Origin: Methanobacteriota archaeon
GTDB lineage: Archaea > Halobacteriota > Bog-38 > Methanoflorentales > Methanoflorentaceae
Assembly: GCA_963701995.1 (NCBI GenBank)
Contig: OY969693.1
Span: forward strand, 743,724 to 807,723
DNA: 64,000 bases
Reading direction: 5' to 3'
Each line of letters starts with the position of its first letter. Position 1 is the stretch's first letter. A program made the translations under genes and the position numbers. This document shows, piece after piece, positions 17,960 through 62,248 of the stretch. A model generated the notes under the pieces. That model searched no databases and was not told the origin of the DNA. It saw nothing but the letters and a program-made list of their open reading frames with translations.

Positions 17960-18392
17960 AATCCCGGCAATCCAGCTTGTGCGGAGGAATTTGGGGAGTT
18001 GGTCGTTGGAGCGGAGTGCTGGGCGTCTCGTGTTTATGGCGGCAACACTGGTTGCCAACCATTACCTGATTGAAAAAGGTAGTCATCTCAAGTTCAAAAT
18101 CAGAAAAAGGTTTCAAAATCACGGTGAGGGTTCGTTATACCCTGACCGGTTCGATACTGGAGTTTGAGGCCCGCTGCTCGCCCTACCTCGAATCGTCTCT
18201 TGTTCGTGCGGCGGACCCCACTCCATATTGGCCGCAGCAGCTTTGCGGTTGCGATAATTTTCTATTTACAGTGTAGGCGAGGCCGCTTTAAGCACCTTAC
18301 GGTTTTGTCTTGCGGGTGCGTCGCATATTCGCTGTTTTCTTAAGTTATGCGCTGGAGCCGTCGCCCCGGAGCTGTGACACAAACGCGGTGTC

Positions 18393-18450
18393 ACGCGTTT
18401 ACACGCAATTCCTGCCTCACGCGTTTACACGCAATTCCTGCCTCACGCGG
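18393..18450. repeat. tandem direct repeat, 26-bp unit CACGCGTTTACACGCAATTCCTGCCT x2 plus a partial third, preceded by a 7-bp-stem hairpin
   Basis: Read directly from the sequence; lies 35-90 bp upstream of the ORF at 18486. Confidence 0.6.
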
Positions 18451-20210: not shown

Positions 20211-20408
20211 TCATTCCGTATGCTCTTCGGCCTCGAGCATTTCCATCAAGGGCTTCTTCAGAATGAGGACGCGCCTTCCGACTCGGACGGCCGGCAACTC
20301 GCCGGACTGCACCATCCGATACGCGGTCGTTCGGCTAATGCCTATAAGGCGTGCGGCGTGCTCAACGGACAACGTCAGAGCTTCGTCTTTATGGTGTTCT
20401 TTTGTCAT
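20211..20408 (-). CDS. helix-turn-helix DNA-binding protein (excisionase/MerR-like HTH_17 type)
   Basis: 65 aa; LSVEHAARLIGISRTTAYRMVQSGELPAVRVGRRVLI matches the small HTH excisionase-family pattern. Confidence 0.7.
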   Translation of the reverse strand: MTKEHHKDEALTLSVEHAARLIGISRTTAYRMVQSGELPAVRVGRRVLILKKPLMEMLEAEEHTE

Positions 20409-26808: not shown

Positions 26809-27331
26809 AGGTACCTCGGAAGTAGGCTAGTGCCGCGGCGCAAATAGCTTTCGTTTGACCGTCTCACCTTTCTCACTCGCAGTGATTTGAACCGGTCTCA
26901 ACTTCAGGCGAGCTGCTAGTTGGGAATGAGTAGGTGCTTCTGCGTCAAGCAGGCACATTGACCGCCGATCACTTCTGCGCCCGGTAACTTCGGTTGAGCA
27001 CCACGGTGACGCGAGAGGTGAAGTGGCTAATACTAGTGCAAACACAGTGACTATTTATGACTACACAGGAGCGCAAGCCAAAAGAGCCCAGTTTTGTCAC
27101 AGGCCAAGAAGCTCTAATATATGAAGTCGAACGGGCGTGTGGCCAATTAAACAAGCTTAAGGACTTGCAACTAGACGAGCCTTTTTTGCGTGCGGTGGCT
27201 GCGGAAATACGAGCGCACATGAACCACTTAGGGGCAAGCTTGCAGAGCTTAACGGAGCCTTGTGGCTAATGACTGTAGCTAAAACGGCTCGCGCTTGCCA
27301 AGGAGCCTCCTCGGCTTCAGCCCTGCTGCGA

Positions 27332-27601
27332 TCAACTCTCACGTCTGTCCGCGTCGCCTTGCCTACCAACAATCGTGCCCAGCACAAGGCGCTTACTTAG
27401 AGGGCTAAGATACGTGTGACGTCTTTCTTTTTCTTGCCCTTCTCGCTCCACATCCCTGAAGCACGAAACGAGCGCGTCGAGTGCCTGCGTATCATCTAGA
27501 CTAGCCTCGGACTTCTCATAAGCTTTTGTCTTGACCTCTGAAAGCGCGCGGCTCAATAGCTCCGCGTCGCTGCCCGTTAAGATTAGCCCACTTTCTATCA
27601 T
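27332..27601 (-). CDS. small-protein paralog A of a three-copy family (89 aa)
   Basis: MIESGLILTGSDAELLSRALSEVKTK...; AGGAGG Shine-Dalgarno motif upstream; paralogs at 44108 and 60516 share the leader. Confidence 0.5.
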   Translation of the reverse strand: MIESGLILTGSDAELLSRALSEVKTKAYEKSEASLDDTQALDALVSCFRDVEREGQEKERRHTYLSPLSKRLVLGTIVGRQGDADRRES

Positions 27602-27713
27602 CTTTCCCCTCCTGGTCGGTGATTTTTACATGAACTACGTGACATAATGCATGATCGCTTTGTTCTGACGCCGATATTAGCGCCAAAATGGCCTTCATTC
27701 GCCGTGAAGAGAG

Positions 27714-27857
27714 TTAAGCAAGCTTCAAAGGGTAAATGGCCACTGGGCTAGTCTCTGATGTAGCGCGGACGGCGTACTCCTCACAATACGAAACGCCCTC
27801 CCTATCGCCACGCTGCTTACAATGGGCGTACTTTTCGCACCTTTGGCAGTTCATCAT
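27714..27857 (-). CDS. Cys-rich mini-ORF (47 aa) inside repeat family R3
   Basis: MMNCQRCEKYAHCKQRGDREGVSYCEEY...; similar mini-ORFs at 32220-32327 and 31232-31303; coding status uncertain. Confidence 0.2.
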   Translation of the reverse strand: MMNCQRCEKYAHCKQRGDREGVSYCEEYAVRATSETSPVAIYPLKLA

Positions 27858-28070
27858 ATTTGCATTTCATGAATGGCAGAGTAAAGAAGCCTATCCGCGC
27901 GGGGGGAAACTAACCGGGCCAGAAATATCCGGCGATTTGTTCCTCCAACGCGCTTTGCATGTTATGTCTCCATGTGCGTAAGGGTCGCTCGCAAATTCAC
28001 CATCTAGTCGGGTAGGAAATCGTCAAAAGCCCTAATCTGCTTGCCATTGGAGGGCGCATAGACGTTATCC
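27761..28070. repeat. dispersed repeat family R3, copy 1 (about 310 bp)
   Basis: About 80-85% identical to 32234-32530; its 3' half recurs inverted at 58909-59045. Confidence 0.6.
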
Positions 28071-28231
28071 GCTTCTGAAACCTGCCAGACCGGCTTATGT
28101 GGTAGTCACAAAAATCAAATCAAAACGAGGAGGTACATGGCAGCCCAGCACTGTCAGAAGTATTTTAGTCGTGTCTAAAAGGAGCCTAGAGCAGAGAGTA
28201 TTAACAATAAGCATCATCAAGGACATTCAAT

Positions 28232-28687
28232 GTGAAAACATTGATTGTCTATGTTTCAATTCACCACCAGAACACGGAAAAAGTAGCAAAGGTGATGGCA
28301 GAAGTGCTGGGGGCGGACCTTGTCCCTATCGGTCAGGCGCAACCCGACACCCTCACGGCGTATGACCAGATCGGATTCGGATCAGGGATTTATTACATGA
28401 AGTTCCATAAGAGGCTCCTCCAGTTTGTGGAGGCGCTCCCGGCCGTCACGAGAAAACGGGCTTTTATCTTCTCTACGGGCGGTGAAGGGGAAATACAGAG
28501 GCATGCTGCTCTGAAAGAGCTGTTGATGAATCGAGGATTCTCCAACGTGGGCGATTTCTCCTGCAAGGGATGGGATACCTGGGGGCCTCTGAAACTTGTC
28601 GGGGGGACTAATAAGGGAAGACCAAATGCGGAAGATCTGGAGGAGGCGCGGGTATTTGCACGGGGATTGAAAGAAAAACATACATGA
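28232..28687 (+). CDS. flavodoxin-like protein
   Basis: 151 aa; MKTLIVYVSIHHQNTEKVAKVMAEVLGADL start typical of the flavodoxin fold; GTG start. Confidence 0.7.
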   Translation: MKTLIVYVSIHHQNTEKVAKVMAEVLGADLVPIGQAQPDTLTAYDQIGFGSGIYYMKFHKRLLQFVEALPAVTRKRAFIFSTGGEGEIQRHAALKELLMNRGFSNVGDFSCKGWDTWGPLKLVGGTNKGRPNAEDLEEARVFARGLKEKHT

Positions 28688-28878
28688 CTTGAGCTTGTGA
28701 GCTTACGCTTACCTGCTCCCAGGGTCGGCTTCTGGAGCAGGCGACGCTGCAAGACGCCCCTTATGCTTAGTTTTAACCTTTCTGAACAATATTCGGTTTC
28801 TGGGCGCGATTGTTCGGCGGCGGCAAAAGAAGGAAGCGTGAGGTCGATAGCCGCATGAACTGATGGAATTACGTCAGA

Positions 28879-29287
28879 TCATTTGATGTTCTGCGCGAGC
28901 TCATCCGCAGTCGTTGCCGTCTTCTTCATTAAATTTGACAACGTTTCAATGAACTTCGACCGTCTGTCTATCGTCATCTCCAAGCGTAGCGACGTCATTT
29001 CCGACATTTTGTTCATGCCATCTGACAGTACCTCTAAGCTCTGAAATACGCCCCCTGAGCTGCTGCTGTTCTTGCAGCACATTCTGCAATTCCGCATTTG
29101 CTTGCTGTGCGTCGTCCCGAACGGCGCTTATGTCTTCTATCAACTCAAATAATAGCTCGATTTCTTTTGATAGGTCTTTCCGCTTTGGCATTGCCTCACC
29201 TTCTGCGCGTTCCGCGTGTTCCGCGTGTGTTGAACTGCACATACACCGCCGGCCGCGCTTAAAAGTGATATCTTGATATCCGATCAT
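28879..29287 (-). CDS. coiled-coil protein, apparently split by a frameshift at a C5/G5 run
   Basis: Two overlapping minus-strand ORFs (28946-29287 and 28879-29097) join into one roughly 118-aa coiled-coil protein if a 1-nt indel at 29051-29055 is corrected. Confidence 0.3.
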
Positions 29288-29499
29288 ATAAAAACAGTGT
29301 GACCATTAGGGCGCGGGGTTTTGATGCTGCTATGTAGTTGTTTATCTTACATTTTTTGCTGCAGCTGGAAAACGAACGCCTCGCTGGCTTTAAATCGAAA
29401 AAAGAAATAAATAAAGAGGAGATAAGGAATAAGTTATAGGAACACGCTATAAAAACCCCCTAACTTTCATTTTAGGACCTCATTTTAAACTCTATTAGT

Positions 29500-29832
29500 T
29501 TAGTCTTCTTGGCTACCGAACAGGTCTTGAACACGAGCTATAGGCTTTTCAGGGTCAAATATATGAAAAGTTAAAAAATAGTCATCTTCAGTGCGGTTAA
29601 TGGCATATTTTTCAAGGCGTAGTGGTAATGCTTCATTGTCACGTGAGAAAATGGGCTCTCCGTGCTTCTTTACAGCTATCTCATTCAGCCTATCGGTTTC
29701 AGCGTCCTAATAGGCTTCTTCTTCTGCTGACATTTTTGATTCCTCAATAAAGCGAGTTTGGAGATAGTCTGCAACTTCTTTAGCTAGGCGTTCTAAAAGG
29801 ACTTTACGAACTTTCATATGCCTATCAGTCAT
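29500..29832 (-). pseudogene. small gene in a low-GC island with one in-frame TAG codon
   Basis: Hand translation MTDRHMKVRKVLLERLAKEVADYLQTRFIEESKMSAEEEAY-TAG-DAETDRLNEIAVKKHGEPIFSRDNEALPLRLEKYAINRTEDDYFLTFHIFDPEKPIARVQDLFGSQED; the frame is maintained across the TAG at 29707-29709. Confidence 0.3.
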
Positions 29833-29977
29833 GCGCTTAAATCCTTCCAATACTTACTCCCCCCAGCTCTCCTTTTTCGCCTTCACAATAAAACACGTAA
29901 CACTCAACTTTTGCAGCTTATATCTTCGCACTTTGACAAGCGGCAAAGATCCGTTCGTGCGCGAAGGCGTAGCCGTA

Positions 29978-30057
29978 GCGCACTCACTACGCTAGGTCAA
30001 GGTGTCCAAGAATTACGACAGCCGCCCCCTTTGCTTGGATTTAATGTTGAATTGCTA
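29978..30057. repeat. 80-bp direct repeat, left copy, flanking the gene at 30172-30915
   Basis: GCGCACTCACTACGCTAGGTC...TTTAATGTTGAATTGCTA; about 88% identical to 30923-31002. Confidence 0.6.
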
Positions 30058-30171
30058 GAGGAAAACCCCATATGCCTCCTTACTTGTTGCCCAAAAACCT
30101 ACTTACTGCACATGCAAAATTACTGTGTTGGTTTTGCGGAGCGTGTTTCTCCTTCGTGATCTGTTTTTTCC

Positions 30172-30915
30172 TTGCGTATGCCTTATCCCCTTCCGTGCGC
30201 TACTCAATTTGATGATATTATGACCGACGAAAAGAAAGAAGAGAAGAGAATCGCCATGGAAGAACGACGCAAGCATCCCTTCGAGGCAACCGTTACGCCC
30301 GAGGTGCTCGAACGGGGGCGACACTGGATCACTGTCCGGCTGAGGAACGTATCAACGGAGCCCCTCGTCGACGTAAGCGCGACGCTGTATACCTATAACT
30401 CGCACGATCTCGACGTTTTGACAAGCGGCTCTTTTCATTTCGTGCAAGAGTTGCGCCCTCACGACATGGCAGCGCTCAACTTCCACGTTTTTGCGAACCA
30501 CACAGGATGGGTCTATCTGCACGTCACGGCGTACCGCGACGGTGCTTTCGTGAACTGGTACTCCCCCTATTATGAGGTTCGACTCGTTGAAGATCCCGCC
30601 GAGATCCAGACCTTCTTCGTGAATCGGCCCTACTGGGCCTATGAAGAAACAATCGAGACGGAAACGGTCGTGCACGCCCACCGCGACGTGCCGAATCTAC
30701 GGCTCGAAATCGCTGCAACTCCCCCGTCGAAATCCCACACGCTCATGGACGTAGTTGATATCGATTTCATCGCAGAAGGCGGCACGAAGCGATTCGTAAG
30801 CGAGCTTTACGCGAGTGAAGAAGGCATGTACCACCTCACAGCGCGCCTTTTTCACGATCAGAAGCTCATTAGCAGCAAGCTGGCATCCTGCTACGTTACG
30901 CCCCTTGAGGAGTGA
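30172..30915 (+). CDS. hypothetical protein (247 aa) bounded by 80-bp direct repeats
   Basis: Long ORF with typical composition; the true start may be the internal Met at 30217; no recognisable motif. Confidence 0.5.
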   Translation: MRMPYPLPCATQFDDIMTDEKKEEKRIAMEERRKHPFEATVTPEVLERGRHWITVRLRNVSTEPLVDVSATLYTYNSHDLDVLTSGSFHFVQELRPHDMAALNFHVFANHTGWVYLHVTAYRDGAFVNWYSPYYEVRLVEDPAEIQTFFVNRPYWAYEETIETETVVHAHRDVPNLRLEIAATPPSKSHTLMDVVDIDFIAEGGTKRFVSELYASEEGMYHLTARLFHDQKLISSKLASCYVTPLEE

Positions 30916-30922
30916 ATCTGCG

Positions 30923-31002
30923 GCGCACTCACTACGCTAGGTCGAGGTGTCCAAAAATTACGACAGCCTTCCCGCTTGCATGAATTTAATGTTGAATTGC
31001 TA
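30923..31002. repeat. 80-bp direct repeat, right copy
   Basis: Matches 29978-30057 in the same orientation. Confidence 0.6.
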
Positions 31003-31459
31003 ACGGGAATACGCCTATACGGTGGCCTAATTAAGGCACAAGCTAATTCAAGGCGTCGGTTTTGGTAGCAGAGCCACGAGGCGACAGAGCGCTGCGAGGG
31101 AAGCCGAGGGGCGTAGCGGTCTCTGTGTGCCGGAATACTTGGAATATTTGGAAGCTATAAAAAGGAGTTTTACTAGTTTTACCTCGCACTCAGCGGTCTT
31201 TCAAGCTTGCTGTTTACTGATCGGAATTTTCTTATTCTTTGTCCGCACAGAGGGGGTAAAATTGCCAACAGGCGTACTTCTCGCACCCTAGACAGCTCAT
31301 CATGTTAGTCTCTTTGGGCAGCAGCGGAAAGCACGTTACCGCGTCGCGAAAATAACTAGGTCGCCGATTTTTGGGTTTTTTCGTATGTGCGCCATACCGA
31401 AAGCTTTATTGTCGCTGCTACTGCGTTATTTGGCGTTTAGTGACGATTGATAACGACCG

Positions 31460-32170
31460 GTGCATCTGTTTCAGAACGACGGCGATAAGAAACGAGAACA
31501 CCGTTTGGAGGTCTTTGTGCCAGCAGATGAAACGTCGCCACCTATACATCGAACACTGCGGCAGGTCGCGGGCGTGTGCGGCCTGTTGGGTGCAATCGTC
31601 GCTTTGAGCTTTGTAGGGCTTGCGATCTTTTATTCACCAGGCAATTTCAGTATCACGCAAAACTGGCTTAGCGATCTCGGCGGTATGGGCTATACGGCCT
31701 TTGAGAACGTCTCCCGGCCCTCAGTCACCTCGTCTACCACGGCGCTCCTCTTCGATTCGGGGCTCTCAGTGGCGGGCATTCTTGGCATCATCTTCTCGTT
31801 AGGACTGTTGAGCGATGCCCATTCGCCTGCGTACCGGCTAGGTGCGGTGTGCACGACGTTGGGAGCAGCTGCGATCGCCGGGGTCGGTCTCTTGCCCGAG
31901 CCGCTTGGCGTCATACATATCGTCGCAAGCTTCGCTTTTGGGATATTCTTCGCGGCAGCTATGTTCCTCATTGGCGGCTCGCTTGTCGATTCTTCCGCAA
32001 AGCCTTTAGGGGCGTTTTCAATCGCCCTCGGCATCGTCGCTCTGATAGGTACCTCTCAAATCAGTTACGAGCGGGGCGTCGCTGAGATTATCTTAGCCGC
32101 CGCGATAGCACTTTGGTTTGTGGTCTTTAGCATTCGAATGTTGAGGCGCGCGTCGCTCCGCGAGACATAG
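31460..32170 (+). CDS. DUF998-family membrane protein
   Basis: 236-aa polytopic protein, paralogous to the frameshifted copy at 23611-24163; GTG start. Confidence 0.6.
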   Translation: MHLFQNDGDKKREHRLEVFVPADETSPPIHRTLRQVAGVCGLLGAIVALSFVGLAIFYSPGNFSITQNWLSDLGGMGYTAFENVSRPSVTSSTTALLFDSGLSVAGILGIIFSLGLLSDAHSPAYRLGAVCTTLGAAAIAGVGLLPEPLGVIHIVASFAFGIFFAAAMFLIGGSLVDSSAKPLGAFSIALGIVALIGTSQISYERGVAEIILAAAIALWFVVFSIRMLRRASLRET

Positions 32171-32233
32171 AATAGCACCCACTCATTTCGTTTACGATCC
32201 CCTTAGCTCGCCCTGCTAGTTAGTTTAGGATAA

Positions 32234-32530
32234 AGCGCGGACGGCGATATTCTTCGCAATACGGAACGTGCTCCCTATCGCCACGCAACCTACAATGGGC
32301 GTACTTCTCGCACCTTTGGCAGTTCATCACGGGCGCATTTCATGAGTGTAGCGTAAAGAGGGCTATCCACGCGGTGGGAAACTAACCGTCGCCAGGAATA
32401 CCAAAGTCAGCGCATCGGCGATTTATTCCTCCAACGCGCTTTGCATGCCATGTCTCATGTGTGTAGAGGTCGCTCCCAAATTCACCACCTAGACGGGCAG
32501 GAAATCGTCAAAAGCCGTAATCTGCTTGGG
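32234..32530. repeat. dispersed repeat family R3, copy 2
   Basis: Aligns with 27761-28070 in the same orientation; contains the mini-ORF MNCQRCEKYAHCRLRGDREHVPYCEEY on the minus strand (32220-32327). Confidence 0.6.
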
Positions 32531-32764
32531 GAGGGGGCACAAAAACGACTGGGCTCACGAGTGGTGAACGCGACGTGGTGCACTTGTGATTGTGAAAGAG
32601 CTGGGATCTACTGGGGTAGTAAGTCGACCGCGAAGCGCTCTCAAGGCTAACCGCATCAAAAGAGACGCAGCGACAAGTCTCTAATGGGAGATTAGGACGC
32701 AGCTCTATGAGCACGTGCGTAAGAAGATACGCACAGGAGTCTTTTTATAAGCGCCGCTGGAAAC

Positions 32765-33646
32765 GTGTTTGTTATGCATACCGGTTTTTGCAGATTCAAC
32801 GTCGGCCTCTTTGAGTGCATAGCGCTCAGTGATGGTTCTTTTACCTATCCTAGCCCGGGTCCGTTTCTCTTCGCCAACGCTCCTATCGAGGGTTTGCGAG
32901 CAAAGCTTCACGCGTATCACATTCAACCAGAGCAGTGGACAGAGTGGACAAGCCCATACACGTGCATTGCCGTTGACACTGGCACCCATCGTGCGCTCAT
33001 CGACACTGGCGGCGGGAGTCTCAGCCTTGATACGGGCCGCCTGCTGCAGAACCTTCACGCCGTGGGTATTGAGCCCGCGGAAATTGACGTAATCGTCATC
33101 AGCCACGCACATCCGGACCATCTCGGCGGTAATACCAGCACTAACGGAGAACCCATTTTCCCTAACGCACGCTTTGTCATTCACCGAGACGAATGGGATT
33201 TTTGGATGGGGATGCCCGACTTACGGGCACTGCAGACCGAGGACTTCGTCAAACGGCTGCTCGTCAACACCGCGCGCGCGAAGCTCGGAGCGATTGAGGG
33301 GCAGGTCGAACTCATTAACCGTGAAAAGGAGATCCTGCCCGGCATTCGGGCACTCGCCGCCCCGGGCCACACGCCGGGCCACATGGCTTTGGCCATATAC
33401 TCAAACGACAGGCAGCTGTTATGCCTCTCAGATACGGTGCTCCACCCCATCCATTTGGAGTCGCCTGAGTGGTACGCCGCCGTCGACCTCGATCCTGAGC
33501 AAACCGTCATCACACGTCACCGGCTCCTTGCGACGGCCGCAAACCAGAAATCGCTCGTCCACGCGTATCACTTCCCGTTTTCTGCGTTAGGACACATCGT
33601 CGCAAAGGGAGATGGATGGCAATGGCGCAGCTGGAAAGCAAAATAG
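32765..33646 (+). CDS. MBL-fold metallo-hydrolase
   Basis: 293 aa; HAHPDH metal-binding motif and downstream His/Asp ligands (PGHTPGH). Confidence 0.85.
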   Translation: MFVMHTGFCRFNVGLFECIALSDGSFTYPSPGPFLFANAPIEGLRAKLHAYHIQPEQWTEWTSPYTCIAVDTGTHRALIDTGGGSLSLDTGRLLQNLHAVGIEPAEIDVIVISHAHPDHLGGNTSTNGEPIFPNARFVIHRDEWDFWMGMPDLRALQTEDFVKRLLVNTARAKLGAIEGQVELINREKEILPGIRALAAPGHTPGHMALAIYSNDRQLLCLSDTVLHPIHLESPEWYAAVDLDPEQTVITRHRLLATAANQKSLVHAYHFPFSALGHIVAKGDGWQWRSWKAK

Positions 33647-33774
33647 CTGACTGTTGTGCCGAGGTGGAAGCGCTCAGCAAGATGGCGAATATACTGGCCA
33701 GTGTCAGCCAATGAGAATGTGAGATCATAGACGAGAGAATCAAAGAGACCATGCGCCATTTGAAGGCACAGTGC

Positions 33775-33999
33775 AAGGCGCAGAGCAGGCCCGTCTATGG
33801 CTATGATGACGCGGATGCGCGCGGTCCCGCAACGAGCAGGAGCAGCACTTATAAAACGGGCGCTCTCTCTGCGGTCGAATCGCCAGACGTAAGAGCAGAT
33901 CGCGAAACGGCTGAACGCCGCCGGGATCCTGGGCAAGGGCAGCGGCACGTGGACAGTAATGAGCATCAGGAGGATCTTCCTTAGTCTGTGGGCTGCACG
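33775..33999 (+). pseudogene. remnant of a serine-recombinase (recombinase-domain) gene
   Basis: Frame reads AALIKRALSLRSNRQT-TAA-EQIAKRLNAAGILGKGSGTWTVMSIRRIFLSLW, matching the IAxxLNxxGIxxxxGxxWxxxxVRRIL motif of large serine recombinases; no catalytic N-terminus and an in-frame stop at 33880-33882. Confidence 0.35.
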
Positions 34000-34061
34000 T
34001 CTCCAGTAGACCCCCAGATTGGGCTAAGCTTAAGTGGTTAACACCCAAGCAATAAGATATT

Positions 34062-34502
34062 ATGACTTTTGAAGATTGCGTGAAGTTTGCAAACGAACGA
34101 GTAATCTGTTCAATCGCTACCGTCGACGGCGATCAGCCGCACGTGCGGATGTTTGGGTTGTGGTTTGCCGATAAGGACGGCTTCTACTTCTCGACTCAGA
34201 AGACGGGTAACGTCTACCGACAACTCTCGGTGAATCCTAAACTGGCGTTGTGTTTCTACGCGCCTCCTGAAACTCAATCGGGGCAAGGGCCCACGATGGA
34301 CATGGGGAAGATAATGCGCGCTAAAGGCACAGCTAAGTTCATTGACGACCCATCTTTGAAAGAGCGACTCTTAAGCGAGAGACCGTTTATACGTCCATTT
34401 GCCGAAAATGTTGTCATATTTCGTGTGGAAGGCGGTGAAGCGTGGTTTTGGACGTTTGCCGACAGCGGACGTGAATCAGCGATTGAGCGGGTTAGCTTTT
34501 GA
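34062..34502 (+). CDS. pyridoxamine 5'-phosphate oxidase family (FMN-binding split-barrel) protein
   Basis: 146 aa; ICSIATVDGDQPHVRMFGLWF pattern typical of PNPOx-like proteins. Confidence 0.7.
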   Translation: MTFEDCVKFANERVICSIATVDGDQPHVRMFGLWFADKDGFYFSTQKTGNVYRQLSVNPKLALCFYAPPETQSGQGPTMDMGKIMRAKGTAKFIDDPSLKERLLSERPFIRPFAENVVIFRVEGGEAWFWTFADSGRESAIERVSF

Positions 34503-34639
34503 GGTAAAGCCGTTTGGCAAGAGGGGCGTGATAGACAGCGGAAAACCATTATCAACGTAAATGATTGGGTTTAAACAGAGACTTTTAAGAACAAAAGCAT
34601 AGTTCTGGGGTCATTCTGCTTCACTGTCACACAAAGGAG

Positions 34640-35137
34640 GTGTTCAACAAAATGACAAAAAATGGTCTTATCAATATTTCCGCAGAGCCAGGAGGACGAG
34701 AGATCGTTATCATTTCAGTCTTCGACGCGCCGCGCGAGCACGTGTTCAGGGCGTACACCGATCCGAATCTTATACCGCAATGGTGGGGTCTGAGAGAGCA
34801 CACTACCACTGTTGATACAATGGACGTGAGACCAGGCGGGGTTTGGCGATTGGTCTCGCGCGACCCCGACGGGAATGAGTTCGCCTTCAAAGGCGTATAT
34901 CACGCCGTAGTGCCCCCCGAGCGGCTTGTCCGAACGTCTGAATTCGAAGGCATGCCCGGTCACGTATCGCTTGAAACGGCGACCTTCGAAGAGCAAGACG
35001 TCAAGACAACGGTGACTGCAATAGCCGTTTTCCAGACCGTTGAAGATCGCGACAGGATGCTCCAGTCGGGAATGGAGGCAGGGGTGGCTGAGACTACAGA
35101 TCGTCTTGTCGAACTTCTGCAAAACCTGAAGCGGTAA
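34640..35137 (+). CDS. SRPBCC-family protein (AHSA1 / Aha1-like)
   Basis: 165 aa; FDAPREHVFRAYTDP...WWG motif characteristic of the family. Confidence 0.7.
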   Translation: MFNKMTKNGLINISAEPGGREIVIISVFDAPREHVFRAYTDPNLIPQWWGLREHTTTVDTMDVRPGGVWRLVSRDPDGNEFAFKGVYHAVVPPERLVRTSEFEGMPGHVSLETATFEEQDVKTTVTAIAVFQTVEDRDRMLQSGMEAGVAETTDRLVELLQNLKR

Positions 35138-36546: not shown

Positions 36547-37251
36547 TCACGACGAGTCGAGCAACTGCACCAACTGAGCAACGTTGCGCTCTTGTGTGAC
36601 AAATCGCGGCGGTATGCTTCTTTGAATGAATCCGGATATCCCGAGCAGCTCTTCCATATCAGATGACAGTGCGTACGTTGGCCGCCCGCTCGTGTCGGGT
36701 TTCTTCTGGCTAATCAGCCGCGCGTGGTGTAACAGTCTGCTGTTGCTACTGCCCACGACGATCACAAGGTTCTCGAAGGCGTATCCGCGCTTGACGTGGG
36801 CGTTGTATGGATAGCGCTGGCGACACGCGGCTCGCTCAGACGCTGACAACCAGTTGAAATCGATCGTATGATCGATCGTGAAATAGCCGACGAAGTACAG
36901 CGCTTCGGGATACTCAGCGTTGTCGTGATTAAACGGTTTTAATCCCGCGTAAAAAACGAGCAGGTCCTCTTCACCCAACTCAAGGAGATACCGACGTTTT
37001 GCCGTAGCGTCACCATAGGTGCACGTCTCGAACTCTGGATCATCGTGCATTGGCACGTGCCTGAGCGCTGGTGGCACGTACGTCGACAGCGGTTTCCCAT
37101 TCCTGCCGATTCGTTCGCCGTAAGTCGTAGCAGTGCACGATCGATACGTCTCCGGAATGGGAACGAATTCGAACGATCCGCCCTCAAAAATTGGACCATA
37201 GGTTCCGCCGCTTCCCTTATCGATGCCGACGCGCAGCAGTAGTGCTTTCAT
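36547..37251 (-). CDS. uncharacterised conserved protein (possibly Nmad3-like, unverified)
   Basis: 234 aa starting MKALLLRVGIDKGSGGTYGPIFEGGSFEFVPIPE; the start is the internal Met of the longer track ORF. The family suggestion is from memory and needs a search. Confidence 0.5.
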   Translation of the reverse strand: MKALLLRVGIDKGSGGTYGPIFEGGSFEFVPIPETYRSCTATTYGERIGRNGKPLSTYVPPALRHVPMHDDPEFETCTYGDATAKRRYLLELGEEDLLVFYAGLKPFNHDNAEYPEALYFVGYFTIDHTIDFNWLSASERAACRQRYPYNAHVKRGYAFENLVIVVGSSNSRLLHHARLISQKKPDTSGRPTYALSSDMEELLGISGFIQRSIPPRFVTQERNVAQLVQLLDSS

Positions 37252-37948
37252 TGTTTTAGGCCCCGAGAGTTCAGGTCTGAAGCACGCAATGGCAAGCTGC
37301 GCTCGGCGTGTATTTGCAAGAGCCCCGCTGCATCGCTGCAAAGCGTGCCATCAGCGTGCCGTTGAAGAAACGAGAGTCCCTTTCGGCAATTCGGGCAGAA
37401 GTTAGGCATTTCGTATGCAATTTCGCAGCGAGCGATAAATACATTTGTCACGTCGGCGGCATCGTGACTCAATTGAGACTGCTTGCACCGCAACTTGCGC
37501 GAAGTCACCTCGCTATGGTGTTGATGCTAGCACCTTGCGTGGCTCGCGTGCGAATCCTCACCAGCTCCTCGTTGGTCTTGAGGGTCTCGGGTACCTCAGA
37601 CGAACGGGGCGTCCCTCTTTGCACAGCAGGCGCTTGTGAACGAAATCAGGTCAAGCGTGTAGCATACAGTGGTGTCCCTTGTTCGGAGTCCCGAGAGCGG
37701 AGGAAGCCCCTATGCCTGGCCTAGGGACTCTCTGAAGGAAATCTATTCCATGATTTCGCCGTCCTTTTTCCGAGCGTGAGCGACCGCGCTATCTAGAATA
37801 GGCAGGGATCACGCCAGTAAGCAGAGCCCAAAGATCCGTTTAGGTGCAACTATACAAAAACCGGCACTCGGGCTACATCTGTTGACCCGCTTTTATTAAG
37901 CCCCTCGATATAAAATAGAGAAGAAAAATAACGGTTTATGATTAAGGG

Positions 37949-42185: not shown

Positions 42186-42345
42186 TCGCTAGAAGCAACG
42201 GCAATATTTGGAAATGACCAGAACCTAATAAACGTTCTTCCCCCGTTCCTGTTTGGGCTTCTTTTCTTGACTATCATTGTAGGATTTGCGTTCGACCTTG
42301 AACTGACAAGTGCCGAAGGACTATCTAACGTCAGAATAAGCGGAT

Positions 42346-42390
42346 GACTAGCGCCAAAAAGCCTCAAAAGTACAAGCTTTATCCTGCGAA
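42346..42390. repeat. short dispersed repeat R5 (45 bp), copy 1
   Basis: GACTAGCGCCAAAAAGCCTCAAAAGTACAAGCTTTATCCTGCGAA; about 87% identical to 55202-55246. Confidence 0.5.
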
Positions 42391-43967: not shown

Positions 43968-44107
43968 GTGCGGCCATTTACCTATTGAAGCTTGCTAAGT
44001 GCGCATAGATAGGAATAACGGGCGGTTTGACGCTATTATTGACGTCGAAAAAAGCGATCACGCTTAATGTCATGTGTTCATGTAAAAACACCGACCAGGA
44101 GGGAAAG

Positions 44108-44483
44108 GTGATTGAGAAGGGATTAATCTTAACGGGCAGCGACGCGGAGTTATTGAGCCAGGCGCTTGCGGAAGTCAAAACAAAAGTCTCTGAAGAGTCC
44201 GATGCTAGTTTAGATGATACTCAAGCACTGGATGCACTCGTTTCGTGTATTAGAAATGGGGAAAAAGAAGGACAGCAGAAAGAAGGACAGCAAGCGTCGT
44301 AGCCTCTTACGCAAGCGCCTTATCTTGGGCACGCTTCTCGATAGGCAAGGCCGCGCGGATGGAAAGAAACGCATACACTTCATCCAGAGCCCGGTGTCCT
44401 TGATTCTCGCACATTTCTTCTATTTTGGCCGTGCGAGCTCACTAAGTCCTCCTTTTTTTCAGCTGCGGCAAACCGCTAGATAA
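44108..44483 (+). pseudogene. small-protein paralog B, frameshifted
   Basis: GTG start after AGGAGGG; the first 64 codons match paralogs A and C, then TAG at 44300-44302, while the conserved C-terminal segment (LRKRLILGTLLDRQGRADG) continues in another frame. Confidence 0.4.
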
Positions 44484-51339: not shown

Positions 51340-51831
51340 ACGGTTGCAATTTGGAGCGCGATTCGTCGAGGTGTAGCAGGACCAAGAAATCAGTCCACAA
51401 ATCGACAAAAATTCAACCTCAGACCGTCAAAAGTGGGGGCTCTGGGCCAGGAGGGAGCCAGCGTGACAGCCCATGGCCCAGACGATCTGCTTCACCACTG
51501 CCCCCCAAAGGAGATAATACGTGGTGTTGCGGCACTAAAGACCCGCGAAGTAGCATAAACGTTTCCGGTGTTTGATGACGACTGGCGCAAAAACGCGTGC
51601 CGGGGCGAATGAAACACACGGAGATCCGCTCGGTCGAGGCATAAGGCGCTGCTATGAGTATGAGGTCAAACGCGTGAGGTGTCACGTCAACAGAACCTAC
51701 ATCTCTCCTGCAGCGGCCTTACGCGCGTTTACCAGTATTTTCTTTCCATATAAACGTAGGGAGCTCAGAGCGGGCGATCTCTTAAAAAATAACGCTCCAA
51801 AGCATTGTAAAACCTGCAATGGCTCCGAAAA
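51340..51831. repeat. composite repeat (degenerate R3 3' part + R4), copy 1
   Basis: 51397-51831 aligns with 59041-59526 at about 80% identity with indels; reading frames are not conserved between copies. Confidence 0.55.
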
Positions 51832-52562
51832 CACTGGTGCAAAATTGACGAGAGATTATGCGAACGGTCCGGTCTCGTCGCTGATGCTTAGTGGTCAGCA
51901 TCCGTTTGTTTCGAGCCGTGGCTCCGGAACCATCTAATGATACACTTGATATAGAGATGCTGATAAGAAGGTCACGCGATAAAGCGACAAAAGACTTTTT
52001 GTCGCCATCATACTAGTTTACGGAGAAAATTCGGGCTGATATCGGATGACCCAAGCCTGCCGGCCGTCCATGCAATGAACAAGTCAGCGATGGTGCTAAT
52101 GTCTGTGCGAGGTGAGGTGCGTTGGACGATAGCTTGCGCGACGCCGAAATTGCGTTGGATCTAGATAAGAACATCTGTCCGGCATGTGGCGTGGCGTATA
52201 CTGAAGAGACGAAGTTCTGTCAGAACTGCGGCAAAAGACTCGAGGTCGCCCCCGCTAAACGAGAGAGAAAATTTCTGCTCTGGCTGCGGCGCCTATTACG
52301 TCGAACACGCTGAAATTTGCCGCAGCTACAGAAAAGCATTTGCGCCTGCGCCTCGAGAAATCGGCCTACGTGCAAACGGTGAATTGGAAGATTGGCGCTT
52401 ATGCCACCTTATAACGATCCTTAAACCTGCACCACCATTTAAGTGTGAAAAAATGCAAAAATGGAGGGGGCTCCCGACAAAAAAATGGGAAATGCGTATT
52501 TACATCAATCAGAATGTTTTTTTGGCGCGCTCTCAAGCGCGTCGACAAGGAGTTGAAATACA

Positions 52563-55063: not shown

Positions 55064-55201
55064 CGTCACCCGTCCTTTGCCGCGTTCATAGCTCGCCTAC
55101 TCAAGGCCACAATGACCTGTTGCGCGATACTACTGGCACGCATCATCAGCTCAACCAGTTGGCGAAGCGGAGTCCTTATTGTATCCTCTCAGCTGTCTCG
55201 T

Positions 55202-55246
55202 GACTAGCGCCAAAACGCCTCAAAATTAGAAGCTTTAGCCTGCGAA
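55202..55246. repeat. short dispersed repeat R5, copy 2
   Basis: Matches 42346-42390. Confidence 0.5.
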
Positions 55247-58908: not shown

Positions 58909-59526
58909 TGGTTAACGCCTGTGCGCTCTCCAATGGCAAGCAGATCACGCATTTTGACCTTGGCCTGCTTGTCTAGGTGGTGAATTTGGGAGCGACCCCT
59001 ACACACACGGGAGATATACCATGCAAAGCGCGTTGGAGGAACAAATCGACCAAAATTCAACCTCAGACCGTCAAAACTGGGGGCTCTGGGCCAGGAGTGA
59101 CAGCTCATGACCCAAAGCGATTTGCTTCACCACTGCCACCTAAGGAGATAATCCGTGGTGTTGCAGAAGGCAAAGACTCATGAAGCAGCATAAATGTTTC
59201 CGACATTTGGTAACGAACGCAAAAACGTGCGCTGCAGGGGGGGATTACACAAGATTCGGGCGCCGTGGGGAGCATAAGGCGCTGATGAACATGAGGTCAA
59301 GCGCGTGCATCATCACGTAGACCGTCTGTGGCAGGCACCTCGAAGCGACGCCAGTCGGGTCAAGCGTGCGGCATCACGTAAAGGAACCTACATCTCCCGC
59401 TACAGCGCCTTATGCGCGTTTTTCTGGTTATTTCCTTTGAATATAAACGTGGGTAGCTCCGAGCGGGCGCTCTTTTGAAAAATAACGCTCTAAAGCGATT
59501 TAATACCTGCAATGGCTCCGAAAAAA
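58909..59526. repeat. composite repeat (inverted R3 3' part + R4), copy 2
   Basis: 58909-59045 is the reverse complement of the R3 3' half; 59041-59526 aligns with 51397-51831 and has an internal duplication of about 50 nt. Confidence 0.55.
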
Positions 59527-59710
59527 CGGTAGAGCTTTAAGGAGAGAATAAGCGAATGTGCTATACCAACGACCGGTTAGTTCTACCACGCGCATAGCCC
59601 CCTATGCAACTTTTTGCCAATGTTTTCTTTGGAAGCTTCAAGTAGTACAAGGGTTTGTCACAAATGTTTAAGTCGCCCACTGTTAGAGCATTCAACAAGG
59701 AGATGACGCA

Positions 59711-60515: not shown

Positions 60516-60800
60516 ATGATTGAAAGCGGACTAATTTTAACCGGCAGCGACGCGGAGCTATTGAGCCGTGCGCTTTCAGAAGTCAAAACAAAAGTCTATG
60601 AGGAGTCCGAGACGAGTCTAGATGATACCCAAGCACTCGATGCACTCCTTTCGAGTTTCAGAACTGCGGAGACCGAAGAACGGGCAAAAGAACGAAGTCA
60701 CGCGTATCTTAGCCCCTTGGGTAAGCGCCTTATGCTTGGCACGATTATCCATAGGCAAGGCGGCGCGGACGGCCATAAGAGCGGCTCGCAGCAGAGCTAA
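60516..60800 (+). CDS. small-protein paralog C (94 aa), apparently intact
   Basis: MIESGLILTGSDAELLSRALSEVKTKVYEESETSLDDTQALDALLSSF...; AAAGGAGG 8 nt upstream. Confidence 0.55.
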   Translation: MIESGLILTGSDAELLSRALSEVKTKVYEESETSLDDTQALDALLSSFRTAETEERAKERSHAYLSPLGKRLMLGTIIHRQGGADGHKSGSQQS

Positions 60801-61441: not shown

Positions 61442-62248
61442 TCACACTAAATCTTTAAGCGCATCCAACAAAGCCTTTCGCTCGACTGAGCCCGTCGGAG
61501 ATATGTAGAAATCAACGCCACGACCTCTTCCACGCCCTTTTCGTTCAACTTCAACATAACCGTACAACTCCAATTCAGCAGTGAGTTCGGAAAGGGTCTT
61601 GTGCGAGACCTGTTCACGTCCGTTAAGCCTCATAATATTGTTAAATTCCCTATAAACCTCAGTTGGCGACTGCTTTTCCTCTTTACTGTATACGGTTTCT
61701 AGCAACACCTTCTGATGTGGTGAGAGACGTACCACTTCTCTGCGTAACAACGACACTTCTGCAAGTCGTTCCGCACGACGCACATCCTCTTCTGCAACAG
61801 TCGTTCGCCCTTCTTCTTCACAAAGGTCAGCAGCAGTTGATAGCAAATCAAGCGCATATCGGGCATCGCCGTTTCTCTGTGCCGCTAATGCAGCGCATAA
61901 CGGAATCACTTCATCGCTCAGCGCATTCGGATAAAACGCCTGTTCAACGCGATACTCCAGAATATCCCTTAACTGAGGCGCGTCATAAGCCGGAAAAGTA
62001 ACATCTACATATACATACGATGACTGGTCACGGGCGTCGGTGATTAGTGTAGGGAAGTCATATTTGTTCGTGATCCCGATAAGACAGATGTTAGAATCTC
62101 GCGTGAACTTGTAGATGGGGCTATATTCGTCTTTTCTGTTCTTAATGAGCATTTTGTCTATCTCATCGAGAATAATGATCGCAATATTCCCTTTGACCTT
62201 CTGTTCGATTTTTGTCCAGTACTCGTTAGTTTTAACCGGTTGCTTGTT
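61442..62248 (-). pseudogene. orc1: Orc1/Cdc6 replication-initiator gene remnant lacking the Walker A region
   Basis: Open frame includes Walker B IAIIILDEID, FPAYDAPQLRDILEYRVEQAF, CAALAAQRNGDARYALDLL and the C-terminal winged helix; upstream it stops at TGA (62249-62251), the preceding PYRV-like segment is in another frame, and no GxxGxGKT motif is found. Confidence 0.7.

What the first reader, a model, noticed from the sequence alone, without database searches (positions are those of the whole stretch)
33775..33999. Serine-recombinase gene remnant
An open frame encodes AALIKRALSLRSNRQT / EQIAKRLNAAGILGKGSGTWTVMSIRRIFLSLW, matching the recombinase-domain motif of large serine recombinases, with an in-frame TAA and no catalytic N-terminal domain. 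It lies between the MBL hydrolase and the PNPOx gene, at the edge of the repeat-rich 27-33 kb block, and may mark the decayed end of an integrated element.
Basis: partly seen in the sequence, partly recalled or inferred. Interest (0 to 1): 0.45.

Follow-up and report, generated by a model that had tools for sequence, protein, structure and literature searches.

The report
Dead short serine-recombinase gene relic
The 0.4-kb gap between two ordinary enzyme genes of an uncultured archaeon holds the decayed back half of a small mobile-element recombinase gene; it is a real but ordinary, non-functional molecular fossil.

Summary
Window 33682-34009 (+) encodes, across two reading frames, the C-terminal ~45-55% of a serine recombinase. 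Support: Pfam Recombinase 25.4 bits (cut-off 21.1), PHROG serine integrase E 6e-20, and tblastn E 7e-13 to intact plasmid genes.

It is dead. The catalytic N-terminal ~115 codons are missing and homology starts where the MBL gene stops. TGA (33712) replaces a family-conserved Trp and TAA (33890) replaces Leu/Tyr. There is one frameshift near 33820, and about half of the family-conserved residues are lost.

Two related strains (97-98% identical) carry the same lesions. One has two further 1-nt deletions, and substitutions show no purifying selection.

The closest relatives (up to 45% identity, thousands of proteins) are about 224 aa long: a Resolvase domain plus only the first half of the Recombinase domain. 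They resemble large serine recombinases but are short, and the relic's TAG (34007) coincides with their natural C-terminus.

Intact relatives sit on small plasmids or inside integrative elements that often carry a separate tyrosine integrase. The relic therefore need not mark an element end. No att repeats, tRNA or partner-gene relics were found. The adjacent block does vary between strains. Interest is low.

The parts
33682..33822 (+). Relic segment 1, in the frame of 33601. It reads MANILASVSQ*ECEIIDERIKETMRHLKAQCKAQSRPVYGYDDADAR, which corresponds to the end of the catalytic-domain E-helix plus the linker with the SRPxYGY motif.
   Evidence: Family HMM positions 120-166 of 224, E 5e-7. It is 57.8% identical to residues 126-170 of the Azospirillum 227-aa recombinase and 64% identical to P0081 residues 119-160. 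There is a weak Pfam Resolvase hit at profile positions 113-142 of 145, 14.3 bits, below the cut-off.
33712..33714 (+). In-frame TGA inside segment 1.
   Evidence: It aligns with a Trp that is conserved in 93% of 119 family members (motif SQWERE). TGG to TGA is a single-base change. The same stop is present in strains L012 and L013.
33815..33825 (+). Frameshift junction, where homology passes from the frame of 33601 to the frame of 33602.
   Evidence: The two tblastn/HMM segments abut here: 33688-33822 in frame 1 and 33818-33982 in frame 2.
33818..34009 (+). Relic segment 2, in the frame of 33602. It reads RAVPQRAGAALIKRALSLRSNRQT*EQIAKRLNAAGILGKGSGTWTVMSIRRIFLSLWAARLQ*. This is the first half of the Recombinase (PF07508) domain, a helix-turn-helix-like DNA-binding part, followed by the apparently natural stop TAG at 34007-34009.
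   Evidence: Pfam PF07508 25.4 bits against cut-off 21.1. Family HMM positions 167-220 of 224, E 3.7e-6. The stop coincides with family C-termini; subject tails are a median of 5 residues shorter.
33890..33892 (+). In-frame TAA inside segment 2.
   Evidence: It aligns with a family column that is Leu in 61% of members and Tyr in, for example, the Azospirillum, Solidesulfovibrio and Priestia proteins. TTA or TAY to TAA is a single-base change. It is conserved in L012 and L013.
33643..33681 (+). Possible further upstream extension of the relic (IADCCAEVEALSK), overlapping the stop codon of the MBL gene.
   Evidence: It aligns by eye and by MAFFT with VADSIDTRSAAGR of the Azospirillum protein. 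However, the family-invariant Ser and Arg are replaced and the stretch lies outside the HMM hit. This extension is tentative.
32774..33646 (+). Left neighbour, an MBL-fold hydrolase gene. Its 3' end abuts the point where recombinase homology begins, so the recombinase's 5' half was lost at this junction.
   Evidence: Pfam Lactamase_B, E 1.6e-16. Homologues in L002 and L003 end at the same position. Between strains it shows 11 codons with synonymous and 7 with nonsynonymous changes.
34062..34502 (+). Right neighbour, a PNPOx-like flavoprotein gene, 52 nt after the relic's stop codon.
   Evidence: Pfam PNPOx_N, E 3.9e-15.
28108..28176 (+). Candidate second, tiny recombinase C-terminal relic (KIKSKRGGTWQPSTVRSILVVS). 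It is not statistically secure.
   Evidence: tblastn E 1e-3 against the Azospirillum protein and E 1e-2 against P0081. The family HMM gives only E about 1, and Pfam finds nothing in a six-frame scan.

Best explanation
This is a neutral, non-functional pseudogene: the 3' ~45-55% of a gene for a short (~224 aa) serine recombinase that resembles large serine recombinases.

The ancestral protein had a Resolvase catalytic domain, an E-helix, a short linker, and a helix-turn-helix-like DNA-binding domain equal to the first half of Pfam 'Recombinase'.

Inferred: the gene probably reached this archaeal (Halobacteriota) chromosome on a small plasmid or integrative element. There such enzymes most likely resolve multimers, or invert or excise DNA by the standard serine-recombinase mechanism. 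In that mechanism a tetramer synapses two sites, Ser-mediated double-strand cuts leave 2-nt overhangs, a subunit rotates by 180 degrees, and the ends are religated.

Shown: a rearrangement or deletion ending at the 3' end of the MBL hydrolase gene removed the promoter and the ~115 codons that hold the catalytic Ser. The remainder then picked up two nonsense mutations, at least one frameshift, and replacements at about half of the family-conserved positions.

Shown: the relic predates the split of at least three sampled strains, and it keeps decaying in them.

It does nothing today beyond filling the MBL-PNPOx intergenic space. Two ORFs that pipelines called on it (77 aa sense, 132 aa antisense) are artefacts.
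For: Homology:
- Pfam PF07508 above its cut-off.
- phrog_95 integrase, E 6.3e-20.
- tblastn E 7e-13 to intact plasmid genes, collinear over 92% of the stitched peptide.
- Family-HMM hits only here in the window.
- blastp hits to all 119 listed family members, best 45% identity, E 8e-24.

Short ancestor:
- Relatives have a median length of 224 aa, and 103 of 119 are at most 240 aa.
- Their Pfam architecture is Resolvase plus Recombinase positions 3-48 of 102.
- The relic's stop coincides with their C-termini.

Inactivation:
- No match to HMM positions 1-119 anywhere in the window.
- The TGA lies at a column that is Trp in 93% of members, and the TAA at a Leu/Tyr column.
- There is a frame change near 33820.
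- Only 16-17 of 33 highly conserved columns are kept.

Neutral decay:
- Strains L012 and L013, from independent samples, share both stops. L012 adds 1-nt deletions at 33666 and 33749.
- In the true frames, 2 codons carry synonymous and 8 nonsynonymous changes. The figures are 11 and 7 in MBL and 4 and 3 in PNPOx.
- Divergence is 1.9x and 3.1x that of the flanking genes.

Assembly is sound: an independent Logan assembly of run ERR10755944 is 100% identical over 2.4 kb.

Mobile-element origin, by context of intact relatives:
- A 3.7-kb circular replicon with a Rep helicase and an HTH_17 gene.
- Plasmids pDCAR2 and pBM300.
- Integrative elements with a separate tyrosine integrase.
- Small serine recombinases are reported on archaeal plasmid pT26-2 and related integrated elements (PMC2926602).
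Against: - The origin on a mobile element is inferred only from where relatives live. No partner-gene relic, att site or tRNA was found near the relic.
- The excess divergence over the flanking genes is only a trend (p about 0.06 for each comparison).
- The nearest intact relative is only 45% identical, and its replicon has 32% GC against 53% for the window. The donor lineage is therefore unknown.
- None of the ~224-aa relatives found here has, to my knowledge, been characterised biochemically. The ancestral activity (resolution, inversion or integration) is a guess.
- Only 64 kb of the 2.1-Mb contig could be inspected. An intact paralogue elsewhere in the genome cannot be excluded.
Confidence: 0.85

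Rival explanations
1. The ancestor was a true large serine recombinase (450-700 aa integrase with a full recombinase domain, zinc ribbon and coiled coil). It sat at the end of an integrated element, and both its 5' catalytic part and its 3' two-thirds have been deleted.
For: - The stitched peptide scores much better against the PHROG large-serine-integrase profile (phrog_95, 72 bits, profile positions 207-308 of 651) than against DNA invertase (phrog_125, 30 bits).
- Intact short relatives match CcrB, XisF and CcrA better than they match resolvase or invertase models.
- The neighbouring block varies between strains.
Against: - The homology ends, and the reading frame stops, exactly where ~224-aa relatives end, with a similar C-terminal tail.
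- All 119 best database relatives are 219-276 aa long.
- There is no trace of the second half of PF07508 or of a zinc ribbon in the 52 nt before PNPOx or elsewhere in the window.
- A 3' deletion ending by chance just after a stop codon at the short family's C-terminus is unlikely.
- No att repeats or tRNA were found.
Confidence: 0.1
2. The region still encodes something functional. Candidates are a small stand-alone DNA-binding protein from the helix-turn-helix part, the 77-aa ORF 33751-33984 that NCBI annotation called, the 132-aa antisense ORF 33568-33966 that the Logan annotation called, or a recoded (stop read-through or frameshifting) recombinase.
For: Both ORFs were called by automatic pipelines. 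The 77-aa ORF is open in all three strains.
Against: - The 77-aa ORF has 0 codons with synonymous changes against 8 (L012) and 5 (L013) with nonsynonymous changes. Only its first 23 codons are in the recombinase frame.
- The antisense ORF is frameshifted in L012 and its C-terminal half is unrelated there. It has no Pfam hit.
- The helix-turn-helix part after the TAA has no start codon.
- Even with read-through the catalytic Ser domain is absent.
Confidence: 0.03
3. Artefact. Either the similarity is due to chance, or the stops and frameshift are assembly errors in an otherwise intact gene.
For: The source is a metagenome-assembled 2.1-Mb contig, and long-read assemblies can carry indel errors.
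Against: - E-values range from 1e-5 to 6e-20 in four independent profile or sequence searches.
- An independent assembly of another run is 100% identical.
- Two other strains share the stops.
- The catalytic half is missing outright, which base-calling errors cannot produce.
Confidence: 0.01

Closest known systems
Short (~224 aa) 'recombinase family protein' / 'Pin-like site-specific DNA recombinase' with Pfam Resolvase plus the N-terminal half of Recombinase. Examples: WP_129356178.1 (Solidesulfovibrio carbinolicus plasmid pDCAR2, 225 aa), the unannotated 227-aa ORF on Azospirillum brasilense Sp7 plasmid p1, and P0081 on a 3.7-kb circular metagenomic replicon.
   Same: The relic aligns collinearly with residues ~105/120-224 at 35-45% identity. 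It shares the SQWERE E-helix motif, the SRPxYGY linker, the IA..LN..G..TK.G..W....V motif and the position of the stop codon.
   Different: The relic lacks the whole catalytic half. It has two stops and a frameshift and has lost about half of the conserved residues. It sits in an archaeal chromosome between metabolic genes rather than next to an overlapping HTH_17/HTH gene as in L007 and L010.
Large serine recombinases / serine integrases (phrog_95; CcrA/B/C of SCCmec, XisF, and by general knowledge phiC31, Bxb1 and A118 integrases).
   Same: The best PHROG hit is E 6e-20. Intact short relatives match the first ~225 positions of the CcrB and XisF models.
   Different: There is no second half of the recombinase domain and no zinc-ribbon or coiled-coil domain. 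The reading frame ends naturally at about residue 224. All NCBIfam scores are far below the curated cut-offs (for example 136 against 900 bits for CcrB).
Serine recombinase (putative resolvase) t26-31p of archaeal plasmid pT26-2, and its homologues in integrated elements of Thermococcales and Methanococcales (PMC2926602).
   Same: It is a small (~211 aa) serine recombinase carried as an accessory gene in the variable region of archaeal plasmids and integrated elements that integrate with a separate tyrosine integrase. This is the kind of context inferred for the ancestor of the relic.
   Different: The paper describes it as related to pfam00239/PinR, and a Recombinase half-domain is not mentioned.
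Classical small resolvases and invertases (gamma-delta/Tn3 resolvase, Hin, Gin; phrog_125 DNA invertase).
   Same: Similar size class and overall plan: a catalytic domain, an E-helix and a small C-terminal DNA-binding domain.
   Different: The C-terminal domain here is of the PF07508 type, not the HTH_7 type. The match to the invertase profile is much weaker (E 9e-7).

Membership tests
Serine recombinase superfamily (functional enzyme) | N-terminal Resolvase (PF00239) catalytic domain with the nucleophilic Ser | tested here: not met
   Only the last ~30 profile positions (113-142 of 145) give a weak hit of 14.3 bits, below the 23.3-bit cut-off. No match to family-HMM positions 1-119 exists anywhere in the window.
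Serine recombinase superfamily (by descent) | Significant collinear sequence homology to the E-helix, the linker and the DNA-binding domain | tested here: met
   (E from 1e-5 to 6e-20).
Large serine recombinase / serine integrase | Complete recombinase domain (PF07508, ~100 aa) | tested here: not met
   Only profile positions 2-49 of 102 are matched, and the frame then ends at the TAG at 34007.
Large serine recombinase / serine integrase | Zinc-ribbon domain with a coiled-coil insertion; total length 400-700 aa | tested here: not met
   Only 52 nt remain between the relic's stop and the PNPOx start. No such domain was found by Pfam on the stitched peptide. The nearest relatives are 219-276 aa long.
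Large serine recombinase / serine integrase | Gene at the edge of an integrated element bounded by attL/attR, often in a tRNA or a disrupted gene | tested here: not met
   There is no tRNA in the window. Only chance-level short repeats lie around the relic. No mobile-element gene relics were found in the adjacent block.
Short (~224 aa) Resolvase + half-Recombinase family | C-terminal half collinear with the family profile, and the stop codon at the family's C-terminus | tested here: met
   HMM positions 120-220 of 224 are covered. The difference in C-terminal tail length has a median of -5 residues. Best identity is 45% (P0081).
Short (~224 aa) Resolvase + half-Recombinase family | Intact open reading frame with the family-conserved residues | tested here: not met
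   There are two stops, a frameshift and an N-terminal truncation. Only 16-17 of 33 columns that are at least 80% conserved are retained. The invariant R of WERE, the invariant T of ERT and several Gly residues are replaced.
Short (~224 aa) Resolvase + half-Recombinase family | Recombinase activity on defined sites | not testable with these tools
   No biochemical data were found for any close relative. The literature search returned only genomic descriptions.

The most novel reading that the evidence does not exclude
The two strain-variable segments are gene cassettes that were moved by a site-specific recombinase, and the recombinase relics at 33.7-34.0 kb and possibly 28.1 kb are what is left of that enzyme. 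The segments are 27289-28705 and about 29317-32702, the latter bounded by the 12-nt direct repeat ATTAGGRCGCRG. Each carries a copy of the ~300-nt R2 repeat with a conserved ~130-nt core. If so, this would be a cassette-shuffling system in a Halobacteriota archaeon that uses a short serine recombinase.
Probability: 0.04. Interest if true: 0.55.

Novelty: new member of a known kind. Interest (0 to 1): 0.12.

Why it matters
It matters little for biology at large. The relic is one more fossil showing that an uncultured Halobacteriota archaeon once hosted a plasmid or integrative element carrying a short serine recombinase that resembles the large ones.

There are two practical points:
- Two database 'hypothetical proteins' called on this DNA are annotation artefacts of a pseudogene. 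They are the 77-aa ORF in the NCBI/ENA record and a 132-aa antisense ORF in Logan.
- A Recombinase-domain (PF07508) motif does not by itself indicate a large serine integrase or an element boundary. A very large family of ~224-aa proteins carries only the first half of that domain and usually sits inside elements that integrate with a tyrosine recombinase.

The strain-level insertions and deletions and the dispersed small-gene repeats next to the relic are the more interesting leads for anyone studying genome plasticity in this lineage.

Tried and rejected
- Word-indexed protein search with the stitched 98-aa peptide found only the window's own 77-aa ORF. The relic is too diverged to share 5-mers with relatives.
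- phmmer against PDB sequences found nothing.
- The look-up of encoding contigs for P0001, and for the GTG-start versions of MBL, flavodoxin and DUF998, found nothing on record. The 2.1-Mb source contig itself could never be read, so the rest of the genome is unexamined.
- The genome-contig scan with MBL returned only ~55%-identical genes in Bathyarchaeia and Chloroflexota MAGs with no synteny. It was useless for defining an empty site.
- The metagenome scan with PNPOx returned 27 loci (56-72% identity). None has a recombinase, MBL or AHSA1 nearby. In most, PNPOx' sits next to Nmad3 instead, so gene order is too rearranged to reconstruct the ancestral junction.
- tblastn of partner genes from elements carrying intact relatives found no relics in the window, apart from an intact stand-alone HTH_17 ORF 13 kb away. 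The partner genes tried were Rep/DnaB helicase, HTH_17, tyrosine integrases and others.
- A six-frame Pfam scan of the ORF-poor stretches 26810-28231, 28688-30171 and 30916-31459 found nothing.
- A three-frame reading (frame 1 to frame 3 to frame 2, giving ...RNEQEQ...) was considered and dropped. A single frameshift aligns at least as well.
- A weak tblastn match of the Azospirillum protein to 28717-29052 (-), E 0.06, was not supported by the family HMM and was discarded.
- Rfam at gathering thresholds found no RNA family in the window.

Full report
**1. What is in the sequence**

Between the stop of an MBL-fold hydrolase gene (32774-33646, Pfam Lactamase_B) and the start of a PNPOx-like gene (34062-34502) lies a 415-nt spacer.

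The frame that starts at 33602 reads RAVPQRAGAALIKRALSLRSNRQT*EQIAKRLNAAGILGKGSGTWTVMSIRRIFLSLWAARLQ*. TAA is at 33890-33892 and the terminal TAG is at 34007-34009.

Immediately upstream, the frame that starts at 33601 reads MANILASVSQ*ECEIIDERIKETMRHLKAQCKAQSRPVYGYDDADAR, with TGA at 33712-33714.

**2. Is it more than chance?**

Yes. Four searches agree.
- Pfam scores the second piece as PF07508 'Recombinase' at 25.4 bits (gathering cut-off 21.1), over profile positions 2-49 of 102. The first piece gives a weak sub-threshold match to the last 30 positions of PF00239 'Resolvase'.
- The two pieces joined into one peptide hit the PHROG serine-integrase family phrog_95 at E 6.3e-20 and DNA invertase phrog_125 at E 9.4e-7.
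- tblastn against 7.3 Gb of plasmids gives E 7e-13, with collinear coverage of 92% of the stitched peptide.
- An HMM built from 119 relatives and run against the six-frame translation of the whole window gives only two significant hits. They are 33682-33819 (HMM positions 120-166, E 5e-7) and 33818-33979 (HMM positions 167-220, E 3.7e-6).

**3. Which family?**

The plasmid hits were not large serine recombinases. They were short 'recombinase family proteins' matched at their C-terminal ends.
- Solidesulfovibrio pDCAR2, WP_129356178.1, 225 aa.
- Priestia pBM300, WP_012209788.1, 266 aa.
- An unannotated 227-aa ORF on an Azospirillum brasilense megaplasmid.

Pfam shows the 225-aa protein as Resolvase 1-145 plus Recombinase positions 3-48 of 102. 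That is the same half-domain as in the relic.

A profile search with the relic placed first found more than 5,600 proteins.
- The 119 best have a median length of 224 aa (range 219-276; 103 are at most 240 aa).
- The best identity to the relic is 45% (P0081), followed by about 40-41%.
- The relic's TAG falls within a few residues of these proteins' natural ends. Its tail LSLWAARLQ resembles, for example, LRLGAA of P0063.

NCBIfam places intact members nearest to the first ~225 positions of CcrB, XisF and CcrA. The scores are far below the cut-offs, and resolvase and invertase models score lower still.

So the ancestor resembled large serine recombinases in sequence but was short. Only its 5' half has been lost.

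**4. State of the gene**
- No match to HMM positions 1-119 (the catalytic Ser domain) exists anywhere in the 64 kb. Homology starts where the MBL gene ends; MBL homologues elsewhere end at the same residue.
- The TGA aligns with a Trp that is present in 93% of family members.
- The TAA aligns with a Leu/Tyr column. Both stops are one-base changes.
- One frame change lies near 33815-33825.
- Of 33 family columns conserved at 80% or more, the relic keeps 16-17. Invariant residues of the WERE and ERT motifs are replaced.

**5. Not an assembly artefact, and evolving neutrally**

A Logan assembly of run ERR10755944 is 100% identical over 32300-34738.

Two other samples give strains that are 97.4% (L012, SRR13961594) and 97.9% (L013, JGI 3300069122) identical. 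Both share the TGA, the TAA and the frame change. L012 has two additional 1-nt deletions, at 33666 and 33749.

Divergence in the relic compared with the flanking genes:

| Strain | Relic | Flanking genes |
|---|---|---|
| L012 | 4.1% | 2.0-2.4% |
| L013 | 2.8% | 0.9% |

Fisher's exact test gives p of about 0.06 for each comparison.

Codons with synonymous and nonsynonymous changes, window against L012:

| Region | Synonymous | Nonsynonymous |
|---|---|---|
| Relic, true frames | 2 | 8 |
| 77-aa ORF | 0 | 8 |
| MBL | 11 | 7 |
| PNPOx | 4 | 3 |

The 77-aa ORF that the NCBI/ENA record calls (P0001, 33751-33984) therefore shows no constraint. The 132-aa antisense ORF called in Logan is frameshifted in L012. 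Both calls are artefacts.

**6. Host and context**
- The window carries a Cdc6/Orc1 fragment and an archaea-specific DUF2111 gene.
- Its SdhA-like protein is 78-86% identical to proteins named 'MAG: Halobacteriota archaeon'.
- The window has no tRNA and no Rfam family at gathering thresholds.

Intact relatives of the relic occur in three kinds of setting.
- A 3.7-kb circular replicon with a DnaB/AAA_25 helicase and an HTH_17 gene overlapping the recombinase stop. Its GC is 32%.
- Small plasmids.
- Inside integrative elements that also encode HTH_17, a large helicase or AAA_25 protein, and a separate tyrosine integrase.

The literature describes small serine recombinases as accessory genes of archaeal pT26-2-type plasmids and of integrated elements that use a tyrosine integrase (PMC2926602).

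A relic of such a gene therefore suggests past contact with a mobile element. It does not mark an element boundary.

**7. Search for the rest of an element**
- tblastn with the partner genes of those elements found no relics in the window. The only hit was an intact stand-alone HTH_17 ORF at 20211-20408(-), 13 kb away.
- Six-frame Pfam scans of the ORF-poor parts of 26.8-31.5 kb found nothing.
- PHROG hits among the neighbours are limited to generic ones.
- Repeats around the relic are at chance level.
- A 21-24-codon stretch at 28108-28176 resembles the family's C-terminus (tblastn E 1e-3 and 1e-2). It is not significant against the profile (E about 1) or Pfam. I list it only as a candidate.

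**8. The 'repeat-rich block'**

The repeats are real, but they are dispersed paralogous units rather than the ends of an island.
- R1 encodes an 89-94-aa protein in three copies: 27332-27601(-), 44027-44302 and 60516-60800. It is conserved in related metagenome contigs.
- R2 (27749-28070 and 32221-32528, with a partial copy at 58910-59048) carries a 4-Cys mini-ORF and a more conserved ~130-nt core.

Strain L012 joins window 27288 to 28706 and 29316 to 32691. The window strain therefore has two extra segments. The second is bounded by the 12-nt imperfect direct repeat ATTAGGGCGCGG / ATTAGGACGCAG, and L012 has a single copy of it.

Insertion in the window strain and deletion in L012 cannot be told apart without an outgroup. 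The variable segments end about 1 kb to the left of the relic, with the shared MBL gene in between.

More distant relatives have the order Nmad3 / PNPOx' / Cdc6-like / R1, with no recombinase, MBL or AHSA1 nearby (Nmad3 is 80-88% identical to the window's copy). The region is strongly rearranged in this lineage.

**9. Verdict**

It is a dead serine-recombinase remnant. However, it most likely descends from a short ~224-aa enzyme that resembles large serine recombinases, not from a large serine integrase. There is no evidence that it marks the end of an integrated element.

It has no present function. It is an ordinary pseudogene, a new decayed member of a known and very common family. Interest is low.

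Noticed in passing
window 27289-28705 and 29317-32702: A 97%-identical strain (L012, SRR13961594) lacks both segments. It joins 27288 to 28706 and 29316 to 32691. The second segment (~3.4 kb; ORF 30172-30915, DUF998, one R2 repeat) is bounded by the 12-nt imperfect direct repeats ATTAGGGCGCGG (29305-29316) and ATTAGGACGCAG (32691-32702), and L012 has one copy. The first segment carries R1, R2 and a flavodoxin-like gene. Whether these are insertions or deletions is undecided.
   Followed up: partly
window 27332-27601(-), 44027-44302(+), 60516-60800(+): Three paralogous copies ('R1' repeat, 75-83% nt identity) of a small gene for an 89-94-aa protein (MIESGLILTGSDAELLSRALSEVKTK...DDTQALDAL...). 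It has no Pfam or PHROG match. The 44-kb copy has a frameshifted tail. An orthologue (69% aa identity) lies next to Cdc6-like, PNPOx' and Nmad3 in related metagenome contigs L022, L024, L027 and L034.
   Followed up: partly
window 27749-28070, 32221-32528, 58910-59048(-); degenerate copy near 31266-31302: The 'R2' repeat has two parts. On the minus strand is a 4-Cys mini-ORF (MMNCQRCEKYAHC[KR].RGDRE.V.YCEEY; 47 and 36 aa). Next to it is a better conserved ~130-nt non-coding core in three copies, for which RNAalifold proposes a three-helix fold. The energy is -26 kcal/mol, and with only 3 sequences the covariation is weak. There is no Rfam hit.
   Followed up: partly
window 28108-28176 (+): KIKSKRGGTWQPSTVRSILVVS resembles the extreme C-terminus of the same short recombinase family (tblastn E 1e-3 and 1e-2). 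It lies between an R2 copy and the flavodoxin-like gene. It is not significant against the family HMM or Pfam. It could be a second, almost erased relic.
   Followed up: partly
window 61442-62152 (-): A Cdc6/Orc1 homologue with only the lid and winged-helix domains (236 aa). The AAA+ ATPase part is missing, so this is a truncated paralogue or pseudogene. It lies next to an R1 copy. In related contigs the homologous piece lies beside PNPOx' and Nmad3.
   Followed up: no
window 20211-20408 (-): An intact stand-alone 65-aa HTH_17 (excisionase/MerR-like) ORF (Pfam 56 bits). It is the kind of gene that accompanies the short recombinases on mobile elements. Here it sits just downstream of an ABC-2 transporter gene, 13 kb from the relic.
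   Followed up: partly
window 33751-33984 (+) and 33568-33966 (-): Two ORFs called as genes by public pipelines lie on the pseudogene and are artefacts. They are a 77-aa ORF in the NCBI/ENA record and a 132-aa antisense ORF in Logan. Between strains the first shows 0 codons with synonymous and 8 with nonsynonymous changes, and the second is frameshifted.
   Followed up: yes
window 36547-37341 (-) and loci L019-L040: The Nmad3 (nucleotide-modification-associated) gene is well conserved (80-88% aa identity) in many metagenome contigs. There it is divergently adjacent to a PNPOx paralogue. In the window the PNPOx gene is on the other side of Nmad3, separated from it by AHSA1 and a secreted hypothetical protein. 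Gene order in this lineage is heavily rearranged.
   Followed up: partly
window 51397-51864 vs 59041-59556; 42345-42390 vs 55201-55246; 18391-18449: Further dispersed repeats were seen but not examined: a ~470-nt pair at 77-79% identity, a 46-nt pair at 91% identity, and a perfect 26-nt tandem repeat of 2.3 copies.
   Followed up: no
loci L010 / L011: The closest intact relative of the relic sits on a 3,707-bp contig recovered in two samples as different rotations, with a 30-nt terminal overlap (GC 32%). This is a tiny circular replicon. It encodes the recombinase, an overlapping HTH_17 gene and a DnaB/AAA_25 helicase with a C-terminal winged helix. Its host is unknown.
   Followed up: partly
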